A stretch of DNA of 64,000 bases from Antedon mediterranea (Eukaryota > Animalia > Echinodermata). Positions 2,169 to 52,973 of this stretch are shown one piece after another (positions within the stretch are counted from its first letter, which is position 1; each line of letters opens with the position of its first letter). The notes beneath the pieces were generated by a model. It saw only the letters and a program-made list of their open reading frames with translations, did not search any database and was not told where the DNA came from. The DNA lies in contig NC_092670.1 in the NCBI RefSeq assembly GCF_964355755.1, forward strand, positions 30,616,388 to 30,680,387. Direction: 5' to 3'. The position numbers and the translations under genes were made by a program.

Positions 2169-2489
2169 CGCCTAGTCGTATCAAAAAGCTATTGTAAACC
2201 GAGAGTCGATCAAGCGTGAAGACCAAAAACAAAAGAAAACAAAAGATCTTGACAGTCCTTTCAGTGTTGCGTAATAGCTTGCACTGGGCGGCGATTCCTT
2301 TGATCTGACAAAAGGCGCTAAAAATACGTATCAATCTTCTCAGTAAAATCAGTTTAAATTTGTAAAAACAGCTAACAGAGATATTAATTAAACTTTGATA
2401 TTTCTTGTAACTAAGGTCGAGATCTTCACGATCGTTGATAAGTTGATTCTTTACAAAAAAGTTTAATGTCAAATATTAAAGTAGACGGA

Positions 2490-27200: not shown

Positions 27201-28186
27201 AATTTGCCATTCAGCAATCCAGTTTGATTTATACCTAAGCATATCTAGTAATTCATTTGCGTTAATGAACCTATTCTCAATTACAATATCCTTAATATTT
27301 CGCACACCTGACCTTACCCAGTTTAATACTTTGTTAAAACTGTCACTGTCATAATCGATTGAAATATTAAAGTACATGTCACGATACACCACTACGACGT
27401 TTATATTTTTGGTAATTATTAATTAATACAAACGTTGAGAAGGAACTGTCAGTATAAAGTTTATTTGTATATCTAACAGTAGAGCCTATCCACAGTCTCA
27501 GTAATAAAGTTTATTTGTATATATTTTTATATTACATCTAACAGTACGAACATTCACAGTAAGAAATGTTCGATTCAAATGAAAAATAGTTAATAGGTAT
27601 TTACAGTATTGTCAAAGTATTGCAAGTTTATTCTCAAAGGGCCCATATATTTACCTACCGTATGTGTTAAACCAAGGGCTCATAAATTTACCTACAGTAC
27701 CAAACTCTGGCAGACTGAGAGATTGGGATGTTCCATTCATCGCAAATCAATACATTTGTATAATCGTATATTAAATCTATCAAAATAGTATTTTTTAAAG
27801 AAAATCGGCCTGTCTTCAACATTATGATGGTGTACTCTAGCCGTTCAACCGGTTTTCAGCTATTAAAAGCAATTATCGTAGGAGGAGATAGAAAAATGCG
27901 AAGCCTCCTCGCATTTTTTTGGCGGGTATTTTTCAAGATGGACATCCATTAGACAGTGTATACCACGATCGGAAAACACCCCTATTTGGGGCAAATCGTT
28001 GAACCTAAATTCGTTTTAATCGTCAATAACTAATTATCTAACTCAATTTAATTAGTAAACAGGGTTACATCAGGCGGTTAAAATCAGTACCGAAAGTACG
28101 AACCAACTTTACATACCATCGAGTGAAAATTCTAGAAGTAAGGCGCGATTTACCGAATTTTGCCCTTACGTAAATTTATATATAGA
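24202..28186 (-). mobile_element. Non-autonomous Helitron, copy H1
   Basis: On the minus strand it begins TCTATATATAAA and ends in the hairpin GCGAGCGAAGCGAGC..CCATCTAG. It sits between A and T with no TSD and is near-identical to 30015-33269. Confidence 0.9.
25900..27321 (-). mobile_element. 5'-truncated Tx1/L1-clade LINE inserted in Helitron H1
   Basis: ORF 26571-27392 has zf-RVT-like CLQCNVVEDDAHFFYEC. Poly(A) at 25900-25909, TSD AAAGTATTAAA on both sides, and the empty site is visible in H2 near 30873-30883. Confidence 0.92.
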
Positions 28187-33000: not shown

Positions 33001-33269
33001 GCGGTTCCATCACCACCACCACGTGCCGCCCAATTCCCGTACATACATTTCCATTTCTCCCTAATTTCTTTAATCCACATAAATTAATTGTCCTTTATGG
33101 AATCCAGTATTGGTTTTGTTGTCTCTATTTCTGAATACCCCAATTAGGGGGACACTTCTGTTTTTGTTTAGTGTCCCAAAAAAGTCCCCGTCCGTGGATT
33201 CTACTGTATTCGAGAACCATCTGTGAGCACCCCTAGATGGTACGCGAGCGAAGCGAGCGTGCCATCTAG
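30015..33269 (+). mobile_element. Non-autonomous Helitron, copy H2
   Basis: A|TCTATATATAAA ... CTAGATGGTACGCGAGCGAAGCGAGCGTGCCATCTAG|T. Internal ~300-bp duplication at 30290-30595 and 31045-31415. Confidence 0.9.
31849..32709 (+). mobile_element. PIF/Harbinger deletion derivative with Myb/SANT-like ORF remnant, inserted in H2
   Basis: TIR GGCCC(C/T)GTTTCTGCTGCCAA with ATATACCGTATA subterminal repeats. ORF 32114-32377 reads LWTEEITIFAIRLWGE..LHGNRRDTEIYNSIS. The element is absent from H1 at ~24762. Confidence 0.8.
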
Positions 33270-33726
33270 TACAATCAAATTAAGCTTGGAGGGTTTTTTT
33301 TATTGTCATTTAAGAAGCATTTTACACAGCATTTTGTTGTGAATTATGAAGGTCAGCATTACTTTTATCAGCTTCTAGCACCCTTTGTATTACCAAGTAG
33401 TAGAGACAGTCGTGACAATACGTTTATCATCCGCTGAATACAATGTTTCATGGTCTGCTGCTTACGAGTTATGTATACTGACGTATCTATATTAGAAAAA
33501 GGGGATTATCTAAAAAATGCTACTATTAAATAATGGTCAGCATAACGAACCATTATCTGCTGTTTGAGAGAATACAGTCAATACACAGTACAACTGTATA
33601 TGTTTGTTTTTACTTTTTTCCTTTCAGTAATGGATTTAAACAACAACTAATGCATAGAATCATATTTTGATAAAAGTCTGCAAGAAATCTTAATTTTAAC
33701 GTATTTGAAAAAGGAAGAGCTTAATC

Positions 33727-33952
33727 ATGAGTCTAACTAATGATCAGTCCTCACCATGGCCCGTGAATGTGGATCATCTTGACGACAATGATAAGATTGC
33801 CATTGTAGGCATTGGATGCAGATACGGCGACGATGTTGCAGGACCACAAGAAATGTGGAGGATTTTGAAGGAGATGAAAGACAGTACAGCATCTCATTCT
33901 ACTGAGCGATTTGACAAATCTAGTCTATTTTGCCATGACAAAACTAGGAAAG
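33727..33952 (+). CDS. PKS-like gene coding exon 1 (KS N-terminus)
   Basis: DKIAIVGIGCRY..EMWRIL..ERFD. Phase-1 donor AAAG|GTAAAC. An upstream acceptor TTTCAG at 33627 suggests a non-coding 5' exon. Confidence 0.88.
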
Positions 33953-34624
33953 GTAAACTGTAAGGCCTATACAACAGTTGTGATAAATTAAATGAAAAGC
34001 CATCCGTTAATGTTTAATATTCATTAACTTTGTCTCACAACTAGACAATCTGGAAAACTTTATTTGAGAATTTGCCAGTAGGATTAATGTATATTTTTTA
34101 AATGTCATTTTCAAAGCGACAGGCAAAAGGAATCATCACTTTAAGCATGGTTACAGAATTGTTATTTTTATAGAAATCACAGTAGTGTTGGTGTAGGTTA
34201 TTTTGGACATAGGCCTACATACATTTTACTTACTTCTTACAACAGCTCCCAGGTGATGTTACTCCTATATGTCTCCAGATCTCCTCATTTCTTTTTTTGT
34301 CAAATCTGGTGTTATTGCCGAGGGGTCTTATTTCTTAGGCTTGAACCCCTACTCCAATCTGTTGTTGTTATTGCCTATGTTTCTGTACCATAAATGAATG
34401 CAAGAGAGAGGACTGTATAAAAGATTATTGCTGGGTTTTCTTGGCTACATGTTTGTTTTTTAGAATGAAATTAATACAGAGCGCCAACATTCTCACTGAA
34501 TGTCCCAATTCTATCTGTTATATCCACCTTATCTCATGATGATGCTTCCTAAATAGTTTGCCATCTCTACACTTTTACAGTTTATGCATTGATGGTGATG
34601 TCGAATTTTTCTTCTTTCTCCTTA

Positions 34625-35464
34625 AGCCCCTTTCTCACAGATGTGTCTGCAATATACCGGTACAGTGCTGGCGTCGTGCCGGTATCGTTACCGGCATATA
34701 CCCATTCTCATCGGACTATCGTGCCGGAAATATAACGATATATACCGGCTTTCTGTGAGAAAGGAGTCGGGCATATTCGGCCAATAAAAAGTCTCTGACA
34801 AAATAATTATTGAGGGCGTCATTTATTGTTATTATTTTTGTCTAGGGATATATGGCGGCGAATGTTAGGTTACAGATTATTATCTTCCTTTATAGAATAT
34901 TTATGCAATACATGCTATGTACAGTATATTGTGCATATATTATACAGGTACAGCAATTAATTAGCCGTCAATCGGCAATCTGTAAAACACCTTAGAAGGC
35001 TGTACAATTTACAAGGCGACGAAGGGTCAGGCTAGTTAGGCACCAACAAAGAGCTACTAGCCTATAAGTATATGGCCTAGACCTAGGCCTGCTATAGATT
35101 ATGCTACAAATTTATTCTTGTCCCCTTATTTTAAGCAGCTCCCTTATCTCATTATCCCTCCAGTTCGACATTATTATTGTTAATTGAATTGAATCTGCGC
35201 CAAAGTGATACACTTGACCGCGCAAGGTGTCTGAAGCCTCGACAGGGAACCCCGGAATATAACGGCGTTACGTTCTCACAGAATGCCCGTCTGGCATTGC
35301 GGGGAATATCCCTAGAATATTACTAGGTCTAAAGCAGGTCATGTCGATACCGGTATGGTGCCGGCATGATGCCAAGACGACCCGTTCTCACAGAAAACCA
35401 TACCGGCATGGTAATGGTATATTCCCGCAATATTCCTGGCACTCAGCTCTGTGAGAAAGGGGCT
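34625..35464. mobile_element. Harbinger-like MITE
   Basis: TIR AGCCCCTTTCTCACAGA with flanks TTA / CTA. Confidence 0.8.
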
Positions 35465-36333
35465 CTATTGACACATTTCAGTATTTGAGACGTTTAGCGT
35501 CATGCCTGGTCTTTTGAAGCATTCGTTCCAATGATGTATTCCTCTCTCAGGATCTTCTCTTTTGGCTGTGTAGTATGAGATGTCGTCTTTATATGCCATA
35601 ATGAGACTCGTGTTCGTACACTTCCCCGTTGTACCCAGTTTCTACATTGAACCATTTCTTGTTTTCAAAACGCGTCCTAATCTTACAGGCATGCACTCTA
35701 CATGCATTTCAAAGCTCTTCCTAATTGCCCGGTGATACCATTTTCATAAGTATTGCATATATATGTCGAAATCTCTTCCATTGGTATGGAATCGAAAGCT
35801 TTGCTTAAATCGATGAAAGCAAAATAAGCAGGGTTGTTTAATTCACATAACTTTTCCACCAGGGATATCAGGTCAGTGGATGATATGTTCTTTCTATAAC
35901 CATGTTCTTATAGGCCCATCTGGGGTGGATTGCTATAAAACAGTCTTTACTGATGGTCTTAACTCCCTGATTAAAGCGGGCTTTATCAGATAAACGGTCT
36001 TACTAAAGCCAACCCCTGTTAGACCATTGCTATAAAACAGTCTTAGATAAGACCGCGTAAAGTAAACGATTGAGGTAATGTTCGTCACGCTTGTTCAATT
36101 CACAATCATAACAGTACGTACATTTCTACGTGAGAAAATCTATTCCAGGCCTATATAAGAATCAAATCACCGTTATTATTTAATTTAACAATTAAAACTC
36201 GTTAAATTGGTTGTCTTTCACGATCAATAATACGTAGGCCTATAAGCAACAAAAAGATAGGTTTAAGACTTTTTTAAGACTCCTTTGAGTAGGCTTTAAT
36301 TTTAAAGACCGTTTACAGGTTATACCGTGGTAT

Positions 36334-39300
36334 TAGTCCAGTCAATCTAGTGATATTTAGAGGTAAACCCACCACAAATTGCAATAGTAACGAAACATTA
36401 ATTTTTTCATTCCAAATGTAGTTTATAATGACATATTAAAAGTCACCAAAAATTGAAGCATTGGAACACATTATTTTTTACGTAATCTCAACAACTATAT
36501 AGTGATTTTATTCCATAAATATTTTGGGGTAGGGGGTAACATTTATGCCCATAACTTGTGGTTTTATAATCCAATCTCAATCATCTTGATATCAATGTGT
36601 AGAATATATATTTTTTTCTAATATGCAATTTACAAAAACAAAATACAACATTTATTTATATAACTAGAGGTCAAAAGGTTATTGACCTTTTACAAAAACT
36701 CATTTTTTTCCTTAAAAAAATGATTAACTGTTATATTGTGCCATAATTGTATATGCATTTAATCAAAATTGTGTTTTATCTGTACCTATCGATATATAAA
36801 ATAGCAAACATGATGTTAACTAGAAGAATTTTAAAAGTAATGATGTACTATTCTTATTGAAATTGATTCTTGATCAAATGTAATGTAAACAATTTTGGGG
36901 TAGGGGGTAGCGTTTATGCCTATAATCCATTGTTTTATAATCATATCTAAATAGCTTTAGTACCAATGTGTAGAGTATATATATCCTACTAATAATATAC
37001 ATTAAAAAACAATTAATAACAGTTATACGTAACTAGAGGTCAAAAGGTCATTGACCTTTTACAAAAACTCAAATGTTCTTAAAATAGCGTAAAACTAAAT
37101 TATGTTTATATATATTATATTTATATTTTGGAAGTATTTGGTGCAAATAATGTTTTTCTTGTACCTATTGTATCGTCATGAAATAGGAAAAATGATACTA
37201 GCTAGAAGAAAATTGAAATTCATTAGCGGAATGTACTATTGATGATTAATTAATGAGTCTTGATAATTTGGAATCAACTCATGATTTACTATAGATAGAT
37301 TTTTGATAATTTTAGTATCAACGAATGTACGTAATGAGAAGTATTTTATCTTCGCAGGGTTGCGTCTTCTCTCCTCTCTTGTATATTATATACACGGATG
37401 GATGTCGGAGCGAACAGGACAATCTTTTCAAATTTGCTGACGACACTGTCTTGCTGTCTCTCCTTCAAAATTCACAGGACGGTCATGGTTCCGCATTAGA
37501 TGGTTTTATCCAATTTTGTGGAAACTCCTACTTGGAACTCAATGTCACCAAAACCAAGGAGATAATTGTAGATTTTAGGAAGGAGAAAGGACGCAGCCCT
37601 CTGGTATCCCCCACAAATGACGAACCAGCGATATTGTCCATTCCTTTAAATACCTAGGTACTATATTTGAGGACAATCTCAGCTGGGAATTAAATACAGA
37701 GGCAATAGTAAAGAAAGGACACCAGAGACTTTATCTGTTAAGGAAGCTGAACCATTTTAATGTCAATAAAGTAATTCTCATGGTTTTTTATAATTCCTTT
37801 ATTGAGAACGTTTTAACTTTTTTCCTTTATATGCTGGTTTTTTAGTCTTAGGGTCAAAGAGAGAAACTCACTACAAAGTTGTTAACTTAAGTTCTAAATT
37901 AATAGGTTGTCAACTTCGTAGCTTGTCTTCCTTCTGTGACATGCACACTCTAGAAAAAAGTAGAGCTATTCTAAAAAATGTTAACCATGCCTTGTTCAGT
38001 GATTTCGAGCTCATGCCTCATGGGCGTCGCTTTCAATGCCCGGCATGTAGAACAAACTGGAAAAGAAATTCGTTTTTGCCAGTTGCCATCCGACTCTTAA
38101 ATTCTTGAACTTTGACTCTTGTTATATTATACTGTATATTGTGATATTTTTGTATATTTTGTAAGATCATTTTAATCCAGACCTTTTTATTTGAATTGCT
38201 CCGTGTGGGATGATATTGTTTAATCCTTCAACTAGAAAAGGACTCACAACTTATATGTCATCAGTATCACTTTCTTGTTCGGGTATTAGTACAGTGCAAT
38301 GCCATTGCATTCACCACATGTAGTTCTAGTTACCCCTGAATGCTTCAAGGAGATACTCAGGCTCTGGCTTTAAGTCTGTGTGTAGAGGAACCATGTTTCC
38401 ATCATCTGATCTTCCATCCCCAATCATCGGTACACATATCAACCCCACTCCATTGCTAAAAGATAACTTGAACTTGAACCTGATGTTAAGTACCTTGGTT
38501 GTGGTACGATTATGAAGTTGGCAATATGCGAGGTTGTACTTGTAGATGGGATGGAGTCAAAGGCATTCCACGTTGTCCAGGTAGTCCATTGTACAGACGC
38601 ACTAAACCATTTTCTCTAGCAACCACAATGTCATCCTTTGTAGCTTGTTTGCATTTGAAGACTACAGCATAATGTCAGAAATAAGTGCAATTACAAGCTT
38701 TTTTTAGAGCCACTTGTTTTCCAATTCCGAAAACTCTGGATGTTGTGTCACCAGTATCGCATGAGCAAACAGAAGGTTATCACAGATGTCTCTCAAATGT
38801 ACTGTTTGAACCAATTTGATAGTCCAGCATCTCAGCTCCAGTCTAAAGAATATCACAAGATGTTTTAAATGCTTGACTGCAGAGGAGCACTAGTAGATCC
38901 GTGTCATCGGATAATGACAGCTGTTTTCCTGTTTGCTGATTCAATGGTTTTTTGTACTATCCGAAAGAACATCTGCATCAGCAACTGCATTCACTCATTG
39001 CCATGTTGTTCAAATACTAGTTACGAAGATTTATAAATTGTTGTTTGTTACAGAAAGTGATCCTATTTTGTGGAACATGTCACTGGTAAAATGTACAGGG
39101 ACACTACCACCTGACCCGCCTTACCATGTGCGCCGTCTTTGGTGGACGAGCCGCTTTCATAATTATCAAAGACTATGCAGAGCAATATTTTCTACAGATC
39201 TCTACACTATTCCATATGAATGCTGTACAGTAGAGCACTACCAGTAGGCCTACTGGACATCATTCAGTGAGTTGGATGTATTAGACTTTTCAGAAGAAGT

Positions 39301-40434
39301 TGTTTCCACGTGGCATCATGTTGGTTTATTAGCTGAAAGTATTGTAAGTTGGTAGTTTCAAAAAGTGGTGGTGGATAAAAAAGTCACCTCGAGTCTCCTC
39401 TGGAACTGTAGGATTGATGCACACATATGACTTTATTGCCAGGATCTTGAATACATTGGAAGACTTTCTGGCCAAAATATTCAATGCTTAATACCACATT
39501 GCTAATATTCCGAGTCACCTGCAGTAACTCCCGTGTCAATGGTATGAAGTCTCTGAGTCGTAACCAAATGGATTTTTCAATTGCCATTGTGTTCCTGACG
39601 TGTGGCCATAAGGTCTTATGTTGGCCGCTGCTGCTTTCGAGTAACGCCCTGATACTATTACAAGGCATTACATACATTTCAGCGCAGATTTGGTCTGGAT
39701 GTACGCATTCCTATATTTTCTTGTCAAACCTCTTGTTTTCTTTGAGGCTTCTCATAGAAACTTTTCCAATCACCTGCAGGTCTGTTGACAATCCAGCCCA
39801 GATGGTCCGAACGTCATACAACATGGAGGTCATTGTCAAACTGCTGTTGAATATCTGTGTATTTCTACTGGTTAAAAAATACTTATACATTCCAATATAA
39901 ATACTGTAACCATGGCAACACAAATGCCAACTGGAAAAAATGGAATGTAGATCATCCAGAAGCAACAGGAACGGAGATGTCACTCATCTGCATCTTGAAC
40001 TGGTCATGTGTATCGCGTTGGACTGAAATGTTCACCCCAGGGAATCCCTGTGTGTATACCATTGTTGTTTACAGCGAAAACAACATTTTTAGCCAAAATT
40101 GACACATTATGTTGTGTTTTTCCGCAAAATTGACATTCTAAATAAAATGGTATGACTATAAGTTTGATATCACTGAATAGGAAATTTAATAAGCTTTCGG
40201 ATGACATAAATCCCACTTGTATATAATGTATTTTAAATGGTTAAATATATGTAATTAATGGGGCATATTAATTTTGACTTAAAATGACCTTTATTGACCT
40301 CTGACCCCTTGACCCAATGCTTGGATTTTCGGTGACTTTTAGTATGTCATTCTACAAATTATATCGAATTCAAAAATACTAGCTTTGTTACTATTGCAAT
40401 TTGTGGTGGGTATATCATTAGATTGACTGGACTA
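36334..40434 (-). mobile_element. Academ-type DNA transposon with decayed transposase
   Basis: TIR TAGTCCAGTCAATCTA..CCCACCACAAATTGCAATAGTAAC with 3-bp TSD TAT. Minus-strand remnants at 38220-40080 (ADADVL, DDTDLLVLLC, GIGK, DWGW). ~370-bp internal tandem duplication at 36520-37230. Confidence 0.8.
37340..38215 (+). mobile_element. Rex1/Babar-type LINE 3' fragment inside Academ
   Basis: QGCVFSPLLYIIYT, KFADDT, LELNVTKTKEIIVDFRK, KYLG, QRLYLLRKL, RTN..RNSFLPVAIRLLN. Frameshifted. Confidence 0.88.
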
Positions 40435-40620
40435 TATAGCAATGGTCTACTTGCTACGTTACGAATTATAGCCGTCTAAGCGCTAAGACCTGTTTATAGA
40501 CCGCTTATAGTAATCCGCCCCTGCTGTCTAACTCTATTGTGTATGATTCTTTCATAGCTTAGCAGCTGTATTCATCATCTGTGATATTCCCCTATAATTT
40601 CCACACTTACTTGAATCTCC

Positions 40621-41437
40621 TTTTAGTCGCGTGGAAGCGACTCTATAGTTCACTATGTCGGTCGGTTGGTCGATCTGTCTGTCTGTCTGTCTGTCGGTCT
40701 GTCTGTCTGTCGGTCTGTCTGTCTGTCGGTCCGGTATCACTATGCGTTTTATCGCTTTCTGACCTTATCTTGATATCAGTTTAATCTAGCTAGGTCAATT
40801 TTTCACAGTATATTCCTTATGGCCAGGAATCAATGTGGTTATGTTTTCACGGTGCGCAATAAAAAATTACGCGGTCTACGCACGATTTAACGAAATCACG
40901 TTTGTAATCATATCTTCACAACCATGAATCACAATTAAATAAAATTTGGTACTCATAAATTTCAGGGCATAAATCATCATATGGCAATACAATTACGTGC
41001 GTAGCGCATGTAACGCATGCGTACGCGCGCTTAAAATTTTCTAAATTTATTTTCGATGAAATGAGAGTAAGTTTCAGGCAATTTTAAGCGTTTATAAAAT
41101 TGCCATGAGTGCGCATATTTTTGCGCGCGCACTGCGCGTTAAATGTTATTGCGCACTCTTTTTGCCCGATTTCTGTTTTCTTGACTTACTTTTCAACTCG
41201 AAATTACGTTATACGAGCACGTCAAAAGTGACAGGCTACGCACGTGTAAATTAAAAAAATATAAATGTTTTTAAACATTTCAACATTTTTAAACATGTTC
41301 AGTAATTTCGGTCAGTATAGTTCACTATGTCGGTCGGTCGGTCTGTCTGTCTGTCGGTCTGTCTGTCGGTTTGTCGGTCTGTCTGTCGGTCCGGTATCAC
41401 TATGCATTGTAGCACGCGACTTAATGGCTGTTGGCCT
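40621..41437 (+). mobile_element. Long HINE (DINE-1-like Helentron derivative)
   Basis: 5' T-run, subterminal inverted AGTCGCGTG/CACGCGACT, two (GTCY)n microsatellites, 3' stem GGCTGTTGGCC. Confidence 0.82.
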
Positions 41438-41831
41438 TTTTCTATAATACTGTGATAATTACAGTTTTTGCAATCTTCCGTTATTTCACCCTTACGCCAA
41501 AAAATCATCTTCCCCTGGAGTTTTTCCATTTTTCATTTTCTTGATAGTTTCTTCTAATTCATCAGTGGTTATCTTCGACACCTTTCTCTTTTACAGTACT
41601 TCCTTCTTCTTTGATTATCTCATCTGGTTTTACATTAATAAGTACAGTATTGAAATATTTAGTCCATCGATTAGTGATGCTTTCTACTGATAAGATTGTT
41701 CCACTTTCATCCTGTATGTTGTGTTTTTCTGTTTTTTTTTCTTTCTGTAAAAGACCATACAACCGCGTTTTGTTTTTGTTTTCTCTTAGTTGGTCTCCTA
41801 TTTGTTTCTCTATTTTTCTGTTTTTGCTCAG

Positions 41832-42644
41832 TTTTTAGTCGCGTGGAAGCGACTCTATAGTTCACTAAGTCGGTCGGTCGGTCTGTCTGTCTGTCTGTCG
41901 GTCTGTCGGTCTGTCTGTCGGTCTGTTTGTCTGTCGGTCCGGTATCACTATGCGTTTTGTCGCTTTATGACCTTATCTTGATATCAGTTTAATCTAGCTA
42001 AGTCAATTTTTCACAGAATATTCCTTATGGCCAGGAATCGATGTGGTTATGTTTTCACGGTGCGCAATAAAAAATTACGCGGTCTACGCACGATTTAACG
42101 AAATCACGTTTGTAATCATATCTTAACAACCATGAATCACAATTAAATAAAATTTGGTACTCATAAATTTCAGGGCATAAATCATCATATGGCAATACAA
42201 TTACGTGCGTAGCGCATGTAACGCATGCGTACGCGCGCTTAAAATTTTCAAAATTTATTTTCGATGAAATAAGAGTACGTTTCAGGCAATTTTAAGCGTT
42301 TACAAAATTGCCATGAGTGCGCAGATTTTTGCGCGCGCACTGCGCGTTAAATGTTGTTGCGCACACTTTTTGCCCGATTTCTGTTTTCTTGACTTAATTT
42401 TCAACTCGAAATTACGTTATACGAGCACGTCAAATGTGACAGGCTACGCACGTGTAAATTAAAAAAATATAAATGTTTTTAAACATTTCAACATTTTTAA
42501 ACATGTTCAGTAATTTCGGTCAGTATAGTTCACTATGTCGGTCGGTCCGTCTGTCTGTCGGTCTGTCTGTCTGACAGTCTGTTTGTCTGTCGGACCGGTA
42601 TCACTATGCATTGTAGCACGCGACTTAATGGCTGTTGGCCTTGT
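41832..42644 (+). mobile_element. Long HINE, second copy
   Basis: Near-identical to 40621-41437, same orientation. Confidence 0.82.
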
Positions 42645-43017
42645 TTTTCAACTTCTCTCCCAAATAGTCTTCTCTGGTTTCTTTAGTACCATTTTTTTTA
42701 AATGAGCCTAAAATGTATTTTCAGATTTTCAAGAAATTTACAATTGTTATTTAAATGTATCAATTAACACAATCCCATACAAGTAAAAACCAAATGTATA
42801 GTTTTAGAGAAAAAAAAATCGTATTTATTCACGACGTCACATACACGATACACGAGAGAGAGAGTTGGTAGGCCGCGCGATAGTCAGTTACTATTCAACG
42901 GTCTGGAAAGCTATACGAAGCGTTGAACTAATACTAATTTGTATTCCATGTCAAATGCTGTTTAAATATAGTGCCCTAAAATATTCTTCCAAACTAACCT
43001 TTACTAGGCCCCGGTGG

Positions 43018-43354
43018 CGATATTTCTTTTCGTACATAAATTGGGGACCCCTCGTGAAACGTCACAAAATAAACATGAATATTCATTAATCATATCCATA
43101 AGGTGTGACGTAAGAATTCAGCTAACTACAATTCGCTAGTGCAAACGATTTCTGTCGAGCCGTCTGTGTAGTCGAGTGGATAAGACTATGGACTTTACAT
43201 GTCGATGTATCGGGTTCGACTCCCATGAGCTACTTCTTTTACTTTATAGTGAGAGAGAGAGATTATTTGGAGGGTTAGGTTTAGTTATATTTAGGAAGTA
43301 GTTCGGCTATCTTTCACATGGGGTCCCCAACTTATGTACGAAAAAAAAATCGCG
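43018..43354. mobile_element. Small TIR element carrying a tRNA-like sequence
   Basis: Inverted ends TTTTCGTACATAA(A/G)TTGGGGACCCC..GTGAAA. CCCCGGTGG occurs on both flanks. Confidence 0.7.
43157..43232 (+). pseudogene. tRNA-derived sequence (Pol III A and B boxes)
   Basis: TAGTCGAGTGG (A box) and GGTTCGACTCC (B box) at tRNA-like spacing. The acceptor stem is not convincing. Confidence 0.55.
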
Positions 43355-43651
43355 CCCCGGTGGAGTCGATCCAACCGTTGATTTTGTTTACCGTATATTA
43401 TAATAACAACATTTATTCAACATAAACAGACAGTTTACATTTGTATGGTCAAGACACACAGAAGCCAAAGTGTCTTTTCTTTGTAGTCCCTAAGCATAAA
43501 ACATAGACGGACGCATTACAATTACAAAAAAATGACATTTTGATCCGCCGTAGTTAAGATTTAGTTGTCATAGAATCACATTGGTTGGTCTGAGCATTAT
43601 TGTTTATTCCACTACAAATTAACTAGGTATTGAAATGTTTTGTTGTTCTAG

Positions 43652-45021
43652 GTGGAGTTCAACACTTTGATCCGCAAATGAGAAATATTCTTGAGGTTGT
43701 ATGGGAATCGATTGAAGATGCTGGTATTCCTGCATCGAAACTTCGTGGCTCCAACACTGGTGTGTATATTGGGGTGACGGATAATGAGTATTATACGTTG
43801 GCTGGGTTACCTTTTATCAGTCAATACACATATCCTGGAACCAACTCGTACCTGATCTCTAACAGAGTTTCGTATGAGTTTGATTTAAGAGGACCACGTT
43901 TTCCAATCGACACCGCCAGTTCGTCGTCATTATATGCTGTACAAATTGCTTGTGATGCTCTAAGAAAAGGGGATTGTGACACAGCAATTGCCGGTGGCGT
44001 AAATATCAATCATAATCCTACAGTTACACTTGGTTTCTGTCAAACTGAATTGCTTTCCCCTGAGTCGACAGCGGATGACAACATCCAAAGTGATGGTATG
44101 ATAATTCTTAAGTCACTAAGCCAAGCAAAAGCAGACAATGATCGAATTTATGCAGTGATTCAAGGTGATGCTATCACAAATTATGATGGAGCACCAGTTA
44201 TTGCAAATCTTAGCCATGATGCCCAAATTGATCTCGCACATAAAGTAAATAAAGCAGTAAAAGTTGACTTCAGTGATATCGCATACATCGAAACTTGTGT
44301 CACTGAAACTAAACTAGGAGACAAGACTGAAGAAAATTCCATTGCCAAATCCATGGGTGAACGACGTTCAGAAGTCGAAGGCGTTGCTGAAATAGGAGGA
44401 GTTATCATAGCAGCATTGTTATTACATCATCGAGACATTCCTGGCATTGTGCAATTCAAACATAGTCCAAATATGCAATTTCAAGATTTGAAACTAAGAG
44501 TTGCTACACCTAACATCCCTTGGCCGGTTGCTTCGACTCTCTCTGTAGGCTGTAGCTCATTCGAAGTCAATGGTGCTAACACACTTGTGTTTAAAGCTGC
44601 ACCTGTGCCTAAAGTACAGTACGTTCATCAAATCGAACCATTGTCGTTTGAGTCATATAACATGTTGATGATCTCGGCTCATTCACTAGAAACACTTCGT
44701 CAAAGATGTATCGACTGGAAAGACTTTTTATCAAATTTAACAGGATTGGAGTCTTTTAAAAATATGTTATACACGGCAAATTTGAGAATTACTATTCACA
44801 AAGAGAGAGCAGTTTTTGTAGCAAAGTCGAGTTATGAGTTTGTGAACTTACTGCAAAAGAAATTAGTCGGAGAAAGCTCAGATGCTATAATTGAAGGCAA
44901 AGCAAAATATGATAAGTCCGTTAACCGAACAGTTTTTGTTTTCTCTGGCAGTGGTACTCAGTGGTGGGGCATGGCGAGAGAATTAATCAATACACAACCT
45001 ATATTCAAAAAAGTCATAAAG
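43652..45021 (+). CDS. PKS-like gene coding exon 2 (degenerate KS, KS-AT linker, AT start)
   Basis: DPQMRNILEVVWESIEDAG, SNRVSYEFDLRGP, DTASSSSL, DRIYAVI, ISAHS, VFVFSGSGTQWWGMAREL. Acceptor TTCTAG (phase 1), donor AAG|GTAATT (phase 0). Confidence 0.93.
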
Positions 45022-45194
45022 GTAATTAGTTTTCAGATATTACTGAAATATACATAGCAAAACCGAGAGGTTGGCGGTTGAAATCATATATTCAAAATTA
45101 TAATTAATTATCACCGATACAATGTTTAAAAAAATAAAAAATAATATATTTTTACCCACTTCAATATTAATAAGATAATATAATTATTTTATAG

Positions 45195-45291
45195 AAGATA
45201 GATGGTTTTTTAGAGAAGACTGGTGGAAAATGGTCGCTTATTGAAATGTTAACAGTAGAAACTGATAAAAACAGAATCAAAGGTGATACAG
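45195..45291 (+). CDS. PKS-like gene coding exon 3 (AT)
   Basis: TTTTATAG|KIDGFLEKTGGKWSLIEMLTVETDKNRIKGDT|GTAAAC, phase 0 in and phase 1 out. It matches the 'D..L....WSL...L' AT segment. Confidence 0.85.
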
Positions 45292-46019
45292 GTAAACATT
45301 TTTGTTACTCTATAATACACCCCTATGTTGACTCTTGTTGTCATTTGAGTGATTTTCTTTAGATTAGTATATATTAGTTTGAATAATTAATGGGAACAAG
45401 ACGTGGAATTTTGTTATGGCTGCCTATGAATATTTTATTTTTTTGTTAACACAATTCATAGTTTTGTTATATATCTATGTAGGGTGCATGTCATATTATG
45501 TCCACTCGGCTTCGCCTCCTTTTAAATAATTTTAATAAAAAGATCATTTCTGAATATTTTTAATCCTTTTATTTTAGCGTCCAGTATACACATCCACGTC
45601 AAATAGTGAAAATGGGACAATAAGTGTTCCGAGAGCCGTATTGATCGTTTAAGTTAGCCAGAGCCTTTTTAGATAGGCTATAAATAGAAAGTTTCCGAGC
45701 ATTTCGAGCGACGCGAGTTCTGACTTCCGTGTTTTATAGGCTGTCTAAATTTCCCTTTTAACGGATTTATATTAAATTATATTGTTGTTTTGATTTATTT
45801 CTGTTTATTAGGAACATTTATATTAAACAAAGACCACAACAATAGCAATTTTAGTTGATTATGGATTCATTTATTCGAATTCTAAGATAAACGTCTAAGA
45901 CAAGTGTTAACGTAAACAAAACGAGTCATACGGCGAAAACAAGAAAGTGAAAACTAACTATTTGTTAAAATAGCTAACATTAATTTGCATTTTTTAAATG
46001 AAATTCTGAAAATGCTATA

Positions 46020-47980
46020 ATTCAATTCAATTCACATTTATTTTCGCATCCTTTATAAATACAGTTTCATAGCATAAATGATGGCAAGGATCCTGCATAG
46101 AGAAGTTTACACTTCTGTTTTCGCAGGACCCTTTTACATAAAAAACATAAAACAATAAACACAACATAATAGATACAAAATAAAAACAAACATTTCCTAT
46201 ATACATTTAAGAGTTGTTCATCATCAAAAAGCGATAGTGTTTTACTAACATGATTATTTATACATTTTTTCTTAAAAAAGAAGATATTCAGTTTATTACT
46301 TCCAGTAAAATCTTTCTTTATATATTATAGCAAAAGTATGAATACATATAGGCCTAATATAAAACAGGCTATGTGTGTATACTCGCACACACCAACACAA
46401 CGCATAATATATGCATATATATTTTATGAGTGAAGCATTTTAAGTTCTGTAATTCGATAAAATGTCTCTTTTGACATATTTTTTTAGTATTTTATAATTT
46501 TTGTTAACAATATCTAAGTGATTTCTACAGAGCTCGTTCCATAGTTTCGGTCCGTGTATACTGATAAAATGTTGACCAGACGTTAACCTATAGAGTATGG
46601 TTGTTTTACGCTACAAATATTTCGAAGACTATGGGTAGTATTTTCGTTTCTTTTGAATATCATTTGATTAGTATACCAGATAACACTTGTTCAGAAAGTG
46701 TATTGGAGAAAATGTTATCAATTAATGAAGATGTGTTGTTTTGTATTCTAGTGGGTCTTGAAATCGATGGGTAAAAGGAATGTGACATCATTACTACTTC
46801 TAGAAAATTATTTACAAAATCAGTCGATGCATGCTTAAGTAAATTAATGTTAAAATCACCCATAATGTGGCATGATTTTCCCTCGATATCAATAGTATTA
46901 AGAATATCGTCTAGTGATCTATTAAAAAGTTCTATATTGGAATCGGGAGGTCTATACCAACAATCGTATTGTTACATTTTCTTTTCAATTAGTTTAATAA
47001 AAATACATTCACAAGATTCAATAAATAGATCTTTTCTTTCTTTTTTGTCAATTGTAGCAGAAACAAACATACCAACTCCCCCTCCTTTACGGTTCTTCCT
47101 ATCTAATGCGAGGAAGTCATAGCTCGGTAAATATGGTTTGCACGACGTATTGTTTAACCATGTTTCCGATATACCTATAACTGTAAAGGAGTGGTTGATT
47201 AAGTTTAGGTATGTAGTTAGTTCATCAATGTGTTGATTGACACTTCGAATATTATAGTGAAGAAATTAGTAGCCAATATTTTTTAATTTCTTCACAGATT
47301 CATTCAAGTCATATGGACTCATATAAGAACATGTCTCAATAGCATTTAGCTTGTTTCTGAGACTATATTCAATGAATTCGTCATGGTCATTATTACCATT
47401 ATCAATAGATATTGGATTAAATAGTATATCCATTGGATTTGATATTTCGTTTTCATCACCGTTATTTTTATTGTTATCCATGCTTTGATTTTGTATGTTT
47501 ATTGATTGTATTTGTCTATAAAAAACTATTTTAATTAATATAATTTATAATACTATGCTTATGTCTACTGCTTAATTTCAGTTACAATAACTTTCTGAAT
47601 TTGTGTTACCTTACAATTGTTGAAATTTGTGGTAACATGGTCTACCTCTTCCTGTGTTAGCTTTTCTGCGAGATAGAACTACAACGTTTTCAACTTTGAT
47701 AGACCTAGAACGTTTTCAACTTTGTTTAGTCTTATATGCATTTTCAAAGATTTCCAGATATAAACTTGGGGTTATTTTATAAGGAGTTGAATATAAGTGT
47801 ATTTTGAGCGAAAGTGCGTTGCGCGTAGGCCTAGGAAGACTCGGCAGGGCTGGAATACTCGTTTCCTTAGGCGACGAGAACGACGGAAGATGTGCTTCAT
47901 CACTGGGCTCTCGAGTGTAGTTCTTGTTAAGTGAATGATTCAGAATCTTAAAATTTGGGCTTGTAAATTTTAAAATAAAG
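46020..47980 (-). mobile_element. Internally deleted CR1/L2-type LINE in PKS intron 3
   Basis: Endonuclease motifs (NIRS, GISETWL, RKGGGVG, MGDFNINLL, PTRI..SLIDNIF) are joined almost directly to the ORF2 tail (HGPKLWNEL) and a (TTGAA)n tail at 46020. The RT core is missing. Confidence 0.78.
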
Positions 47981-48329
47981 TAATAAACTTTCATTTTTCT
48001 TAAAATTATGAAGAATAGGGTGAAGTGTGGTCTGAATGCCTGGACTCAGTGTTGAATTGGTAAAATACTGAAAAATCAGTAAATTAATTAGGCCTAGCCT
48101 ATTTAATCAATGTACAGTATATAATTTAATATTTTTAGGAATAGAGCTAAACATACTATTGGGCTTACTATTAATCTCCTAATAACTCTGTTAATGTCAC
48201 ATGTCACTAAAATTGATTTAAGTATAGGCTGAAAATGTTTACTTCGTATCGGAGCTAAATGAAATTTCACGGTTCTTCCCTGCTTTTTATTATAATAATG
48301 GAGCAATAAATGAAATACAAGTACACACC

Positions 48330-49080
48330 AAATTAACATTTAAGTTTTAATATTATCACAAATTTCACCTTAAAAATCAGACAACAAGTTTTCTACATCA
48401 ACTTACTATCTTCTCTAAACCTCTTTTTCACACCCTAAATACCCTAAACATTTTTGACATTAATAAATTGCAAACTGCCCTCTTCATGTTTAGGTACTCA
48501 AATAACAAACTACCATCCACTTTCAACGGTTTCTTCACTAAAAATAACGAACTACACAAATATAACACTAGGAACGCAAACAACTACATTTCCAAAAACT
48601 ATAGCAGTAAGCAAATACTTAACTCTATACTACATACCGGTCCCCTACTTTGGAACTCTCTTAATCCGTCAATAACTAATAGCAAAACAAATAATACTCT
48701 AAAAATAAACTACAAATCTTATCTAATATCAAAATATAAAGTAAATTAATTATTTTGATCATATTAATAACTTATATAATTAAATTTAATTAGGCAAATC
48801 ATATAAATACAGTTTGTCCTTCCTGTCGTCCTTGTCGTGTTTGTATCGTCGTACATGTCCGTCTCTGTCTGTCAGTAGCGTACCATCACTTTGCTTATTA
48901 TTATCATTTTTAACTTTTTTATTCTTTCTGGTGGATCCAGGCTTAAAGCCCCTTGGGGTTTAAATGGTATTCTCCAGGCATAATGCAACTATTATTTACT
49001 TAATTTCCAACCACTTGTATCTTTTATATTTTGTATATGTTTGCATTATGTGAATAAATTTGAACTTGAACTTGAACTTG
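48330..49080 (+). mobile_element. CR1/L2-type LINE 3' fragment
   Basis: ALFMFRYSNNKLP..HKYNTR..GPLLWNSL, followed by AATAAA and a (TTGAAC)n tail. Confidence 0.8.
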
Positions 49081-49794
49081 TGCTAGGCATAATCTTCAAG
49101 ATTTTTTATTACTGTAGTCCTATTACCATTATTTATTTGCCAATTTTAAATGTATATTTAAACTTTATTAAACTACCGCACAACCAACCGCCACTTGAAC
49201 CTTTAAATAAGTAAATTGAGCAAGTTAAAGTTTTTAAAAAATAAATTTCCGTTTGGTAATACATCTGTAGAAGATATCCTTAATTACAGTATTATTAGTG
49301 CTGTTTCACATATGCCGGAGGTAAATTAATATGACCATGAAAATGTGTTGTTTATTTAATGCTATTTGTATTGAAGTATGCAGAACAACCCTCTGTGGTC
49401 TGTAAATAAAAACAACATTCAATTAATAATAATCATTATTTAATTATATTTATATATTTATTCTTATTTTCTTAGGCCTCCCTAGGTCTATAAATTAATA
49501 AACAACGCGCGTCCGACAATGAACACGCGCCAATAATGCACGCACTACCCAACTATTATATGCTAAAGCCTGGCTCTCCTACTGTACTACTAGGCCTAGA
49601 CTATAATATTGATTTATAAATAAAACAAAGAGGCTTTGTAGAGTTTTATGAATAAAAACAGCTTCCCCATATATTATGTGTTGCTCTTAATTTATAAAAC
49701 TAAATCTTTTATCTTATAGCGTAAAAATTGATTTTAGCTACAACCATGTGTTCCATTTTTAAGCAGTACAATACCCAAGAAGGCACATGTTTAA

Positions 49795-49985
49795 AGGGTC
49801 ATTCACACCTGTTCCGGCACGGTTCCGGTCAGGCGCCGGAAAATCCAATCGAACGTGAATGTTTCGTTTTCACGCGGTTACGCGCATATCGATTGGCGCA
49901 TAGCCGCGTGGAGCGTCGTGAAAACGAAACATTGATGTTCGATTCGCCGGATCGGAACCGTGCCGGAACAGGTGTGAAAGACCCT
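49795..49985. mobile_element. Near-fully palindromic Harbinger/Tourist-like MITE
   Basis: AGGGTC(A/T)TTCACACCTGTTCCGGCACGGTTCCG arms pair almost to the centre. TAA flanks both sides. Confidence 0.85.
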
Positions 49986-50532
49986 TAAGCAGCCATTTTT
50001 TTTATTAACTAATATTGAAAAGTCAAATATTCAGAAACTATAAAACCCACCTTCTGAAAAATTGCGTTGTTTTATTACAGCCTCAACAAATTAGACGAAA
50101 TTTTAACATTCGAATAGCCTAACATTGTTTAAAATCAGTGTCATTCACCCTTGTTTCACACAAATGTTATAGAATCGTCGATTAAAAAACAGTACCACGT
50201 GGTTCGTAGGTTGTCAAAGGTTTTCATGAATTATTCATTAGTAAATAAAACCAAAAGTTCCAATTGGCCAGTTTGCAAAAACGTAAGATTTATTTTTCAA
50301 AACAAAGTTTCTTCCGGTTAATTGTCCACGCTGTCTCGTGTGCAAAAACGATTCGCTGCCGATAGAGGGCTCACTACTTTTTGTCCCTGGTTAATTGAGT
50401 GTGTATAATCAAGCTTATAATTATAACGTTATACATTTTATATATAACAATTAGAAAAATATACTGTATTAAACTTATGCATCCGATTAATAAATGTTTA
50501 TTTTACCTTAATACTATATTTGCTTTAAACAG

Positions 50533-51464
50533 AAATTTCACAAGTCTGCATTTGTAGCGTTCAGATTGGATTAGTTGAACTTTACAAACATTATGGAGTA
50601 AGGCCGAGTGCCATCATCGGTCAGAGTGTAGGTGAGGTGGCAGCAGCCTACGCAGCTGGACTTTTCACTATGGAAACAGCAGTCAAACTAATATTTAAAC
50701 GAGGAAATATCCTAAGTAAAATAAGTGGCTCAGGAACGATGATGGCAGTTCATCATGACGTGGAAGTTGTCAAAAGAAAGCTAGACTGTACTCCAATAGA
50801 GATAGACATAGGAGCAATAAACAGCCCTAAGCAGATTGTATTGTCTGGGAAAACAGAGTTACTTATTGAATTTTCATCCCAATTAAAAAAAGAGGGCATA
50901 GTGACAAAATTACTAAATGTTAATAGTCCATTTCACAGTCGTCATCAAGACGATTTAAAGGAAGAATTTCTAAGAAATACTAGTTTCCTTCAGAAGCAAC
51001 CATATTCAGCTAATGAAACATCTGTTACTCCAATGATGTCAACTGTAACAAACCGTTATATTACTCTACAAGAAGCACATGACCCTGCTTACTGGAGTAA
51101 TATTCGCCAGATGGTGCGTTTAAAAGACGCACTAGATGATGTACTCAATAGCGGTTGCAATGGTTTTTTAGAAATAGGAGCTCATCCAACGTTGTCACCA
51201 GTTATTAAAGAAACTATAGCTTCGAAATCGATAAAACCAACGATTTACTTTATCACTCATTCTCTTAAAACACCACGTAATGTAAGTATCACTGCCGATG
51301 ATAATCTAAATTTCATTACATCGTTAGCACAGATGTTTGCAGAAGGTTACCCTGTTGATATGACACCATGCTTTCAAGAGTTTAATTGCATGGTGGAGTC
51401 ATTGCCATTGTATCCATGGCAACATATACAGAGTCCAGCAGCAACTAAAAATAAGGGACCATGA
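50533..51464 (+). CDS. PKS-like gene coding exon 4 (AT core, post-AT linker, stop)
   Basis: Acceptor TTTAAACAG (phase 1). EISQVCI..VQIGL..GVRPSAIIGQSVGEVAAAYAAG..KRG..GTMMAV..AINSP..LSG..SPFHS..FLEIGAHPTL..LPLYPWQH, then TGA. Confidence 0.93.
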
Positions 51465-51499
51465 TCGTGTATGTTAGCTTAAAAATGCTAGTTTGGAAA

Positions 51500-51730
51500 A
51501 TCACTGTTGGTGCTGTTGTTGATTTGCTGTTGCTGTTACTGGTAATGTTGCTGTTGTTGATATTTTTGCTGTTTCCGTTGCTGTTACTGTTAATGTTGCT
51601 ATGGCTGCTGTTGTTGCTGTTCCCGTTGCTGTCGCTATTGTTAATGTTTCTTCTGTTACTACGGCTGCTGCTGTTGCTGTTCCCGTTGCTGTCGCTACTA
51701 TTAATGTTGCTGTTGTTGCTACGGCTGCTG
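51500..51730. repeat. Degenerate (CTG/TTG)n low-complexity repeat just after the PKS stop
   Basis: Runs of GCTGTT/GTTGCT that produce spurious poly-L and poly-N/S ORFs. Confidence 0.85.
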
Positions 51731-52260
51731 TAAATTATCATCCCACTTTATGTTTTTGAGTTTGATAATAAAAGGTTATGATAATCCAATACATTGTCAG
51801 TGCGCCCTCAGGTAGCTCAATAATTACTGAATTTATATATAGATTATGGTTAATTCTGACATAGGCGAGCACAATGGAAAAACTTTCGGACAAATCTCTG
51901 CCTTGGATAACTACCTATAAAAGTTTTTATAACCAAATTTCTGATTTCATCGGTTGATTTTCAATTCAATTTCAATTGTACGTGGGTGGAGGTAATTTCC
52001 ATTTTTATAATAAAACAATTATACTATTTGTAATAGAATTCATTGCACTGTTATCTACAATTTACCAAGCATTTGTTATCCTTTTTTACCACTTTTCTTA
52101 TCAGAGGATTTTATTTGATCATAAATGTTATCATATTATTAAAACTAAAAAAATATGTATATGTATATACAAATATATAAACTGAAAGACACACAAATTA
52201 TGATAACAAACGTTTCATAAGTAAACAACTTTTTATTAAATATGCAATAGATACGGTAAC

Positions 52261-52973
52261 AAACAAGGCCATATAGATGGCTGCAGTCGCGTGCTCATTA
52301 GTGTTTACCTACCGACCGACCAACCTAGCAAACTGACCGAAATTACTGAACATGTTTAAAAATGTTGAATTGTTTAAAAACATTATATTTTTTTAATTTA
52401 CACGTGCGTAGCCTGTCACTTTTGACGTGCTCGTATAACGTAATTTTGAGTTGAAAGGTAAGTCAAGAAAACAGACATCGGGCAAAAAGAGTGCGCAATA
52501 ACATTTAACGCGCAGTGCGCGCGCAAAAATCTGCGCACTTTTGTAAACGCTTAAAATTGCCTGAAACGTACTCTTATTTCATCAAAATTAATTTTGAAAA
52601 TTTTAAGCGCGCGTACGCATGCGTTACATGCGCTACGCACGTAATTGTATTGCCATATGATGATTTATGCCCTGAAATGTATGAGTACCAAATTTTATTT
52701 AATTGTGATTCATGGTTGTGAAGATATGATTACAAACGTGATTTCGTTAAATCGTGCGTAGACCGCGTAAATTTTTATTGCGCACCGTGAAAGCATAACC
52801 ACATCGATTCCTGGCCATAAGGAATATACTGTGAAAAATTGACTTAGCTAGATTAAACTGATATCAAGATAAGGTCAGAAAGCGATAAAACGCATAGTGA
52901 TACCGGACCGACAGACAGACAGACCGACCGACCGACATAGTGAACTATAGAGTCGCGTCGACGCGACTAAAAA
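52261..52973 (-). mobile_element. Long HINE, third copy (reverse orientation)
   Basis: Reverse complement of most of 40621-41437, but its 3' end matches the short HINE type (CAAGGCCATATAGATGGCTGCAGTCGCGT). Confidence 0.82.

What the first reader, a model, noticed from the sequence alone, without database searches (positions are those of the whole stretch)
33727..51464. Stand-alone dead-KS / intact-AT didomain derived from an animal type I PKS
Seen: four GT-AG exons with compatible phases (1,0,1) give one uninterrupted 874-aa ORF containing only KS, linker, AT and post-AT linker (LPLYPWQH), then a stop. I recognise no DH, KR, ER, ACP or TE sequence in the remaining 12.5 kb. Known: animal FAS/PKS, such as the sea-urchin pigment PKS (Pks1) type it resembles (SNRVSYEFDLRGP, VFVFSGxGTQWWGMAR), are cis-AT multidomain iterative enzymes, and free-standing trans-acting ATs are described from bacterial trans-AT systems. 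Inference: this paralog may act as a trans-AT, a loading or editing partner, or a heterodimerising regulator of a full PKS. That would be an unusual arrangement for an animal.
Basis: partly seen in the sequence, partly recalled or inferred. Interest (0 to 1): 0.88.

Follow-up and report, generated by a model that had tools for sequence, protein, structure and literature searches.

The report
Crinoid PKS reduced to its acyltransferase
A feather-star copy of a polyketide synthase gene has a destroyed chain-building domain and stops right after a largely intact acyl-loading domain; it likely survived as a free-standing helper enzyme for its sibling synthases, which would be unusual in an animal, but its expression is untested and it may already be dying.

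Summary
Observation confirmed: four GT-AG exons give an open 874-codon frame, KS-linker-AT-post-AT linker, then a stop. No DH/KR/ACP/TE remnant lies anywhere in the 64 kb. Correction: the gene belongs to a crinoid expansion of Pks2-like (TE-bearing) PKSs, sister to an Antedon mediterranea PKS that lacks a TE, not to pigment Pks1. The KS has lost Cys-His-His and evolved neutrally (58 of 186 conserved columns changed; paralogs 1-4). The AT is much better kept (11 of 98; p=0.0001) with Ser, His and Arg present. About 8 indels are all in frame and no stop arose (simulated chance 0.0015), so selection kept the frame open to reach the AT. The closest analogue is bacterial PfaB (pseudo-KS plus AT). 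It is not a classic trans-AT system: all 11 crinoid relatives retain their own AT. Against current function: splicing is unshown and needs one of two exon-1 donors; one contig from a second sample carries a frameshift; the AT is relaxed relative to paralogs.

The parts
33727..33952 (+). Exon 1 (aa 1-75): start codon and KS N-terminus; ends at donor AAG|GTAAAC (phase 1)
   Evidence: ketoacyl-synt E 1.8e-6; tblastn to P0001 residues 6-83, 62%
33953..33965 (+). Two candidate donors: 33953 keeps the frame; 33960 (ACT|GTAAGG) gives a stop after aa 83
   Evidence: Sequence. Which is used is untested
33953..43651 (+). Intron 1 (9.7 kb, repeat-filled); holds no trace of the 27 KS residues missing at this junction
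43652..45021 (+). Exon 2 (aa 76-532): degenerate KS, KS-AT linker, first AT strand
   Evidence: a paralog contig starts at the same acceptor (X1 record 1)
43918..43920 (+). KS catalytic Cys replaced by Ser165
   Evidence: DTACS in 32 of 34 relatives (1 NTACS, 1 gap)
44296..44298 (+). KS first catalytic His replaced by Cys291
   Evidence: xEAHGT in 34 of 34 relatives
44371..44376 (+). Site of 16-residue deletion that removes the KS second catalytic His
43969..43969 (+). 1-nt loss in a G run seen in one contig of run X1 (second sample); would stop the frame after aa 191
   Evidence: table 4 (depth 7.3, 257-base contig, 1 other difference)
45195..45291 (+). Exon 3 (aa 533-564): AT helix
   Evidence: 72% to P0001 596-627; a paralog contig is spliced across the same intron
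50533..51464 (+). Exon 4 (aa 565-874): AT core, post-AT linker LPLYPWQ (51402), stop
   Evidence: Acyl_transf_1 E 1.9e-37; pLDDT 84; PKS AT fold
50622..50627 (+). AT motif GQSVG: His595 replaced by Gln, catalytic Ser596 kept
   Evidence: Gln at this place in 14 of 491 motif matches among 503 held proteins, including an Asterias rubens PKS
50700..50702 (+). AT carboxylate-binding Arg621 kept
   Evidence: role per PMC12895367
50934..50936 (+). AT catalytic His699 kept (SPFH; family NAFH)
51462..51464 (+). TGA stop, 13 residues after YPWQ; likely created by a small frameshifting deletion (ACC ATG A read as CCA TGA)
   Evidence: origin of the stop is inference

Best explanation
This is a truncated crinoid duplicate of a Pks2-like polyketide synthase whose ketosynthase is dead and unconstrained while its frame and acyltransferase were kept, and it likely works (or worked until very recently) as a free-standing acyltransferase that would move acyl groups on or off the carrier domains of sibling synthases. 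Shown: architecture, loss of the KS triad, neutral KS, partly conserved AT with Ser-His dyad and Arg, open frame, sister relation to P0001, absence of a TE in the P0001 protein record. Inferred: transcription, use of the in-frame donor, catalysis, action in trans. The siblings have their own ATs, so plain malonyl supply would be redundant. I therefore favour an editing or release role like PfaB, most likely on the TE-less sister P0001. Starter or extender loading with changed specificity is the next option.
For: Changes on the window lineage at invariant vs variable columns: KS 0.31 vs 0.30, AT 0.11 vs 0.21; the intact sister P0001 shows 0.00 vs 0.11 and 0.03 vs 0.16. Conserved columns changed: KS 58 of 186, AT 11 of 98, p=0.00014; nine paralogs have 1-4 of about 187 in KS. 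Terminal branch window/P0001: KS 0.475/0.032, linker 0.50/0.41, AT+post 0.246/0.125, with P0001 as sister in all three trees. The drop in divergence falls inside exon 2, at the KS/linker border, which argues against exon-level gene conversion. About 8 indels are in frame ((1/3)^8 = 0.00015) and there is no stop (simulated P 0.0015, mean 6.1 stops expected). Conservation ends at the structural end of the didomain: 0 of 9 crinoid-invariant residues changed up to YPWQ, 3 of 5 after it, which suggests an old truncation. The AT part folds with pLDDT 84 as a PKS AT. His595, replaced here, is described as protecting the malonyl-enzyme from hydrolysis and is also replaced in PfaB (PMC12895367). An excised animal KS-AT didomain acylates a stand-alone ACP in vitro (PMC6334511, passages).
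Against: Splicing and expression are not shown. The frame depends on the donor at 33953 rather than 33960. One contig of a second sample has a 1-nt loss at 43969 that stops the frame after aa 191; it is a single contig at depth 7.3 in a homopolymer, platform unknown. The AT is relaxed relative to paralogs (11 of 98 vs 14 of 882 pooled, p=8e-6; vs P0001 4 of 98, p=0.10), and invariant vs variable columns in the AT differ only at p=0.07. It carries a one-residue deletion beside a conserved YW motif and F761L. No orthologous didomain was found among annotated proteins of 542-2280 aa (weak searches). No AT-less partner was found. Arg621 is kept, unlike PfaB, which argues for malonyl binding rather than long-chain release. 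TE-less animal PKSs work without such a helper (Pks1, medaka PKS; PMC11414698, PMC4604110).
Confidence: 0.5

Rival explanations
1. The gene did serve as an AT-only protein but is now a young or polymorphic pseudogene; the window shows an allele that has not yet been hit.
For: Frameshift in a second sample. Relaxed AT. Loss of 27 residues at the exon 1/2 junction leaves a competing out-of-frame donor. The family has other truncated members (P0002, P0018). A neutral spell of 2% amino-acid change leaves the frame free of stops 29% of the time.
Against: A neutral spell long enough to explain the AT excess (5-8% change) leaves no stop only 5.4-1.3% of the time, before counting frameshifts. A second copy, about 6-8% diverged, shows no gap over 324 coding bases and a further in-frame 12-nt loss.
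Confidence: 0.27
2. Selection acted on a full-length KS-dead PKS (AT-DH-KR-ACP working with an active sibling); the remaining exons lie beyond the window, and a recent frameshift at the end of exon 4 killed the gene.
For: The stop appears to come from a small frameshift, and a donor-like GTATGT follows at 51469. Introns of 5-10 kb occur in this gene, and only 12.5 kb downstream can be seen. No whole genome was held.
Against: No downstream remnant in 12.5 kb. Residues just past YPWQ that are invariant in 11 crinoid PKSs have changed in 3 of 5 cases (P 0.011 at the AT rate, 0.18 at the neutral rate), pointing to long release. The count is small.
Confidence: 0.13
3. The product is a non-catalytic partner that poisons or tunes a full PKS by heterodimerising or by binding ACP.
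For: PKS dimers form through the KS (established knowledge). AT pocket residues have changed (M509S, H595Q).
Against: The KS is unconstrained along its whole length, including S158R next to the catalytic loop and three deletions of 7-27 residues. The exon-2 model is poor (pLDDT 67, models 46-67), although it lacks the first 76 residues and has no control. AT Ser, His and Arg are kept.
Confidence: 0.07
4. It is an ordinary pseudogene, neutral since duplication; the open frame and conserved AT are chance.
For: Lineage-specific, long branch, no orthologue found.
Against: KS and AT rates differ at p=0.00014. No stop (P 0.0015) and about 8 of 8 indels in frame (0.00015).
Confidence: 0.03

Closest known systems
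PfaB of gammaproteobacterial PUFA synthases (PMC12895367; abstract and parts 1-3 of 7 read)
   Same: Stand-alone polypeptide of pseudo-KS lacking Cys-His-His, a linker and an active-site-intact AT; fast-evolving KS'; His of GHSxG replaced; works beside a synthase that has its own AT.
   Different: Independent origin from an intron-bearing animal PKS. Gln rather than Tyr before the Ser. Keeps the malonyl-binding Arg and motif I Gln that PfaB lacks. No pfa cluster. Function untested.
Echinoderm Pks2-type PKSs (S. purpuratus Pks2, P0299; spicule formation, PMC4604110 passages) and their crinoid-expanded relatives (P0001, P0238, P0239, P0242, P0002, P0240-P0245, P0018)
   Same: Parent family: 63-70% identity to P0001 over exons 2-4; same intron positions where they could be seen.
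   Different: Parents are cis-AT iterative enzymes KS-AT-DH-KR-ACP(-TE) with an intact KS. The crinoid 1:1 counterpart of Pks2 appears to be P0292; this gene sits in a separate crinoid expansion.
Trans-AT PKS systems of bacteria and algae (algae: PMC4661987, abstract only)
   Same: Free-standing AT predicted to act on ACPs of another polypeptide.
   Different: No AT-less partner among 11 crinoid relatives; the AT is still fused to a KS relic.
Pigment PKSs SpPks1 / CrPKS (PMC11414698, parts 1-2 and passages)
   Same: Echinoderm iterative type I PKS with shared generic KS and AT motifs.
   Different: They carry GM(L)MD and no TE. This gene has GVTD at what I read as the matching position, and 8 of 11 crinoid relatives have a TE motif.
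Trans-acting enzymes of C. elegans nemamide synthesis, such as PKAL-1 (PMC8363725, passages)
   Same: Animal precedent for enzymes acting in trans on a PKS/NRPS carrier domain.
   Different: PKAL-1 is a ligase, not a PKS-derived AT.

Membership tests
Trans-AT PKS system | Free-standing AT polypeptide with Ser-His dyad | tested here: met
   At sequence level: Ser596, His699, Arg621; no downstream domains in the window
Trans-AT PKS system | Partner PKS modules lack their own AT | tested here: not met
   11 of 11 crinoid PKSs retrieved keep GHSVGE and xAFHS; P0002 has Arg to Gln but no ACP. The set is what three searches returned, not a whole-genome census
Trans-AT PKS system | Transfers acyl groups to a partner ACP in trans | not testable with these tools
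   Needs an in vitro assay
PfaB (pseudo-KS/AT) | N-terminal KS' without Cys-His-His | tested here: met
   C165S, H291C, second His deleted
PfaB (pseudo-KS/AT) | AT with GxSxG in which His is replaced, and motif III His | tested here: met
   GQSVG and SPFH; PfaB has GYSMG and TAMH
PfaB (pseudo-KS/AT) | Malonyl-binding Arg absent | tested here: not met
   Arg621 is kept
PfaB (pseudo-KS/AT) | Descent from, and clustering with, pfa PUFA synthase genes | tested here: not met
   Nested among crinoid PKSs, sister to P0001 with support 0.999. No PfaB sequence was in the tree; the placement rests on 63-70% identity to P0001
Pigment Pks1 / CrPKS | GM(L)MD motif in KS | tested here: not met
   No G[LM]MD in the window protein or in any animal relative held
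Pigment Pks1 / CrPKS | Family lacks a TE | tested here: not met
   TE motif in 8 of 11 crinoid relatives; Pfam TE in P0238 and P0299
Pigment Pks1 / CrPKS | Groups with SpPks1 in a tree | not tested
   No Pks1 sequence came back from the searches
Pks2-like deuterostome PKS | KS-AT groups with S. purpuratus Pks2 and TE-bearing relatives | tested here: met
   Deep nodes are weakly supported (0.59-0.78); it is not the 1:1 orthologue
Pks2-like deuterostome PKS | Complete KS-AT-DH-KR-ACP-TE with active KS | tested here: not met
Pseudogene | Disabling stop or frameshift in the coding frame | tested here: inconclusive
   None in the window allele if donor 33953 is used; one in a contig of a second sample
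Pseudogene | Neutral change across the whole gene | tested here: not met
   Neutral in KS, reduced in AT; amino-acid proxy, not codon dN/dS
KS(Q)/KS(S) decarboxylating loading module (features recalled, not from a call) | Both KS histidines kept and an ACP in cis | tested here: not met
   Both His lost; no ACP

The most novel reading that the evidence does not exclude
An animal has re-invented PfaB: after duplication one sister (P0001) lost its thioesterase and the other kept only a retuned acyltransferase that releases or edits the sister's product in trans, making a two-protein polyketide synthase in a crinoid.
Probability: 0.2. Interest if true: 0.8.

Novelty: new variant of a known kind. 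Interest (0 to 1): 0.52.

Why it matters
Animal PKSs are treated as self-contained single polypeptides. A PKS-derived AT working in trans would show that animals can split these enzymes into cooperating parts, converging on bacterial PfaB, and would give a testable route to product release or editing for TE-less animal PKSs. Even if the gene is now dying, it is a clean natural case of domain-level decay: one domain neutral, the frame held open, the next domain constrained. It also points to an apparently unstudied crinoid expansion of Pks2-like synthases. I found no such didomain described in 9 searches of the held library; subscription papers and supplements were not seen.

Tried and rejected
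No whole genome was held, so there is no partner census and no view beyond 64000. Run search: no RNA holder listed; this is no evidence on expression. Laying X1, X2, X4, X5 on 33200-53000 was swamped by repeats; 15 of 242 joints were shown and none joined the exons. In one search all 6 joints were shown; the only exon 2-3 join carries P0001-type letters, so X1 probably contains RNA, but it also covers introns. The window-type sequence there appears in contigs of depth 3-7, one running from exon 2 into the intron, while paralog contigs have depth 31-106. Contig depth cannot rank genes, so I do not count this for or against expression. Search of 50% representatives returned only multi-module bacterial-type PKSs of 4000-8000 aa: uninformative. 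Searches for an annotated orthologous didomain found none; the near-length range of exon 2 (under 542 aa) was not searched. A hidden exon for the missing 27 residues was rejected. Exon-level gene conversion as the cause of AT conservation was rejected because the sister is the same in all three domain trees and the border lies inside exon 2. Enrichment of AT changes in the pocket: about 2 of 13 canonical positions (list recalled, mapped by eye) against 0.11 overall, so no enrichment is claimed. The exon-2 fold lacks the KS N-terminus and has no intact control: weak. No complex prediction was run; the spliced protein cannot be submitted and enzyme-carrier pairs score poorly. Codon dN/dS could not be computed because no paralog coding sequences were available and the variant tables were cut (40 of 173 rows). 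Earlier-findings look-ups by place and by sequence were blank.
Full report
Observation. Exons 33727-33952, 43652-45021, 45195-45291 and 50533-51464 have GT-AG ends and phases 1, 0, 1, and give 874 residues and a TGA. Pfam finds only KS, KS C-terminal extension and AT. The post-AT parts of 25 relatives find nothing in the 64 kb window by tblastn (best E 0.20) or as a profile (best E 0.39), while the KS-AT control profile recovers all four exons. No whole genome was held, so nothing beyond 64000 was seen.

Family. The best matches are crinoid PKSs: Antedon mediterranea P0001 (63% over exon 2, 70% over exon 4), then P0002 and Anneissia japonica P0018. A search with P0001 returned a crinoid expansion and the wider deuterostome group that includes S. 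purpuratus polyketide synthase 2. In a KS-AT tree of 35 sequences (window, 32 animal, 2 unnamed bacterial-type outgroups) the window gene is sister to P0001 (support 0.999) on a branch of 0.41 against 0.12. Eight of 11 crinoid relatives have a TE motif, and none of the animal relatives has the GM(L)MD motif that marks pigment Pks1/CrPKS (motif from PMC11414698, parts 1-2 read). Pks2 has a TE and is needed for larval spicules (PMC4604110, passages). P0001 ends after its ACP, without a TE; this rests on the annotated protein.

The KS is dead and neutral. Cys165 is Ser, His291 is Cys, and the second His lies in a 16-residue deletion. A further 27 residues are missing at the exon 1/2 junction and are not in intron 1. 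On the window lineage, invariant KS columns changed as often as variable ones (41.5 of 134 vs 38.5 of 127), against 0.5 and 13.5 for P0001 (half counts are columns where the direction was ambiguous). By a second count 58 of 186 conserved KS columns differ, against 1-4 in each of nine paralogs.

The AT is constrained but not pristine. Eleven of 98 conserved columns differ (KS vs AT p=0.00014); paralogs show 0-4 of 98 (pooled p=8e-6; P0001 alone p=0.10). Invariant vs variable columns within the AT differ only at p=0.07. Ser596, His699, Arg621 and Gln568 are kept. Changed are M509S at the oxyanion-hole position, H595Q before the Ser, NAFH to SPFH, T628I, A658G, F761L and a one-residue deletion near 752. 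Gln before the Ser occurs in 14 of 491 motif matches among 503 held proteins, including one sea-star PKS. Exon 4 folds as a PKS AT (pLDDT 84.4, pTM 0.81; TM 0.78-0.80 to Lsd14 and DEBS), though a good alignment would give that for a recently dead AT too.

The frame was held open. About 8 indels relative to P0001 (2, 7, 2, 16, 1, 1 residues in KS, a net 2 in the linker, 1 in AT) are all in frame; I left out the junction gap and alignment-end artefacts. Neutral simulation of the KS to 29% amino-acid change left no stop in 0.15% of 2000 runs (mean 6.1 stops; assumed mutation model, started from the present sequence). Divergence falls at the KS/linker border inside exon 2, and P0001 is sister in separate KS, linker and AT trees, so exon-level conversion does not explain the pattern. 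Conservation also ends where a KS-AT didomain ends: 0 of 9 crinoid-invariant residues changed up to YPWQ, 3 of 5 after it. The simplest reading is that selection needed translation through a useless KS to reach linker, AT and post-AT linker.

Results against current function. Exon 1 has two donors seven bases apart. The one at 33953 (AAG|GTAAAC; same intronic hexamer as the exon 3 donor) keeps the frame; the one at 33960 stops it after residue 83. No spliced read of this gene was seen. In run X1, a different sample from X2-X5, a 257-base contig of the window type (depth 7.3, one other difference) lacks one G at 43969, which would stop the frame after residue 191. In sample S2 a second copy, 8 of 134 and 27 of 324 bases different, shares four of the deletions and has a further in-frame 12-base loss, at about half the contig depth; whether it is open throughout is unknown. 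A whole-gene neutral spell of 5-8% change, enough to explain the AT excess, would leave no stop in only 5.4-1.3% of runs, but a spell of 2% would in 29%, so recent death cannot be excluded.

Mechanism. All 11 crinoid relatives retrieved keep their own AT motifs, so this is not a trans-AT system in the strict sense, and plain malonyl supply would be redundant. The closest architecture is PfaB: a stand-alone pseudo-KS plus AT that sits beside a synthase with its own malonyl AT, transfers long acyl chains and sets the final product (PMC12895367, abstract and parts 1-3). That paper notes that the His of GHSxG protects the malonyl-enzyme from hydrolysis and is replaced in PfaB; it is replaced here too. 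Unlike PfaB, the malonyl-binding Arg is kept. An excised animal KS-AT didomain does acylate a separate ACP (PMC6334511, passages), and enzymes acting in trans on an animal PKS/NRPS are known from nematodes (PMC8363725, passages). I therefore infer an acyl transferase or hydrolase acting on sibling ACPs, for editing or release, with the TE-less sister P0001 the first candidate. Every step after the sequence evidence is inferred.

Novelty. Nine library searches and a term search of an animal PKS survey (PMC10764717, passages) showed no animal pseudo-KS/AT gene. Supplements were not read and most subscription papers are not held. Algae have free-standing ATs (PMC4661987, abstract). The scan's own notes held nothing on this genome or sequence and one mirror-image stand-alone KS in another animal.

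Verdict. Real feature, new variant of a known kind. Odds: functioning stand-alone AT 0.5, recently dead AT-only gene 0.27, killed full-length KS-dead gene 0.13, non-catalytic partner 0.07, plain pseudogene 0.03. Interest 0.52; 0.8 if the PfaB-like partnership with P0001 holds (probability about 0.2).

Noticed in passing
window 43804-45335 (contigs of runs X3, X4, X5): A second degenerate copy in sample S2, about 6-8% diverged, shares four deletions of the dead KS, has an extra in-frame 12-nt loss at 44284 and about half the contig depth; a hemizygous paralog or a very divergent allele.
   Followed up: partly
P0001, P0002, P0018: Other members of the crinoid expansion are incomplete as annotated: P0001 lacks the TE; P0002 has Gln for the AT Arg and lacks KR, ACP and TE; P0018 lacks the KS N-terminus and the C-terminal domains. 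Suggests birth-and-death evolution, or annotation gaps.
   Followed up: partly
window 51469-51474 and 51500-51740: A donor-like GTATGT lies 5 bases after the stop, followed by a GCTGTT-type simple repeat; first AATAAA at 51767.
   Followed up: partly
window 1-2171 (- strand): LINE-like element: a 546-codon frame with a GDSL/SGNH esterase-like domain (E 3e-6) followed by an endonuclease frame (E 8e-8) that runs off the window.
   Followed up: no
window 7735-9498 (- strand): 587-codon open frame that looks by eye like gag plus aspartic protease of an LTR retrotransposon; no Pfam hit at E 0.01.
   Followed up: no
window 37316-37657 (+), 46660-46971 (-), 26571-27422 (-): Retroelement fragments: RT in intron 1, endonuclease in intron 3, zf-RVT upstream.
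   Followed up: no
window 40621-41441, 41833-42646 and 52332-52937: An ~820-base repeat is duplicated in intron 1 (95.5%) with an inverted ~610-base copy just downstream of the gene; very high copy in the runs.
   Followed up: no
window 18178-18979 and 21866-22348: 31-base tandem repeat arrays, 96-98% alike.
   Followed up: no
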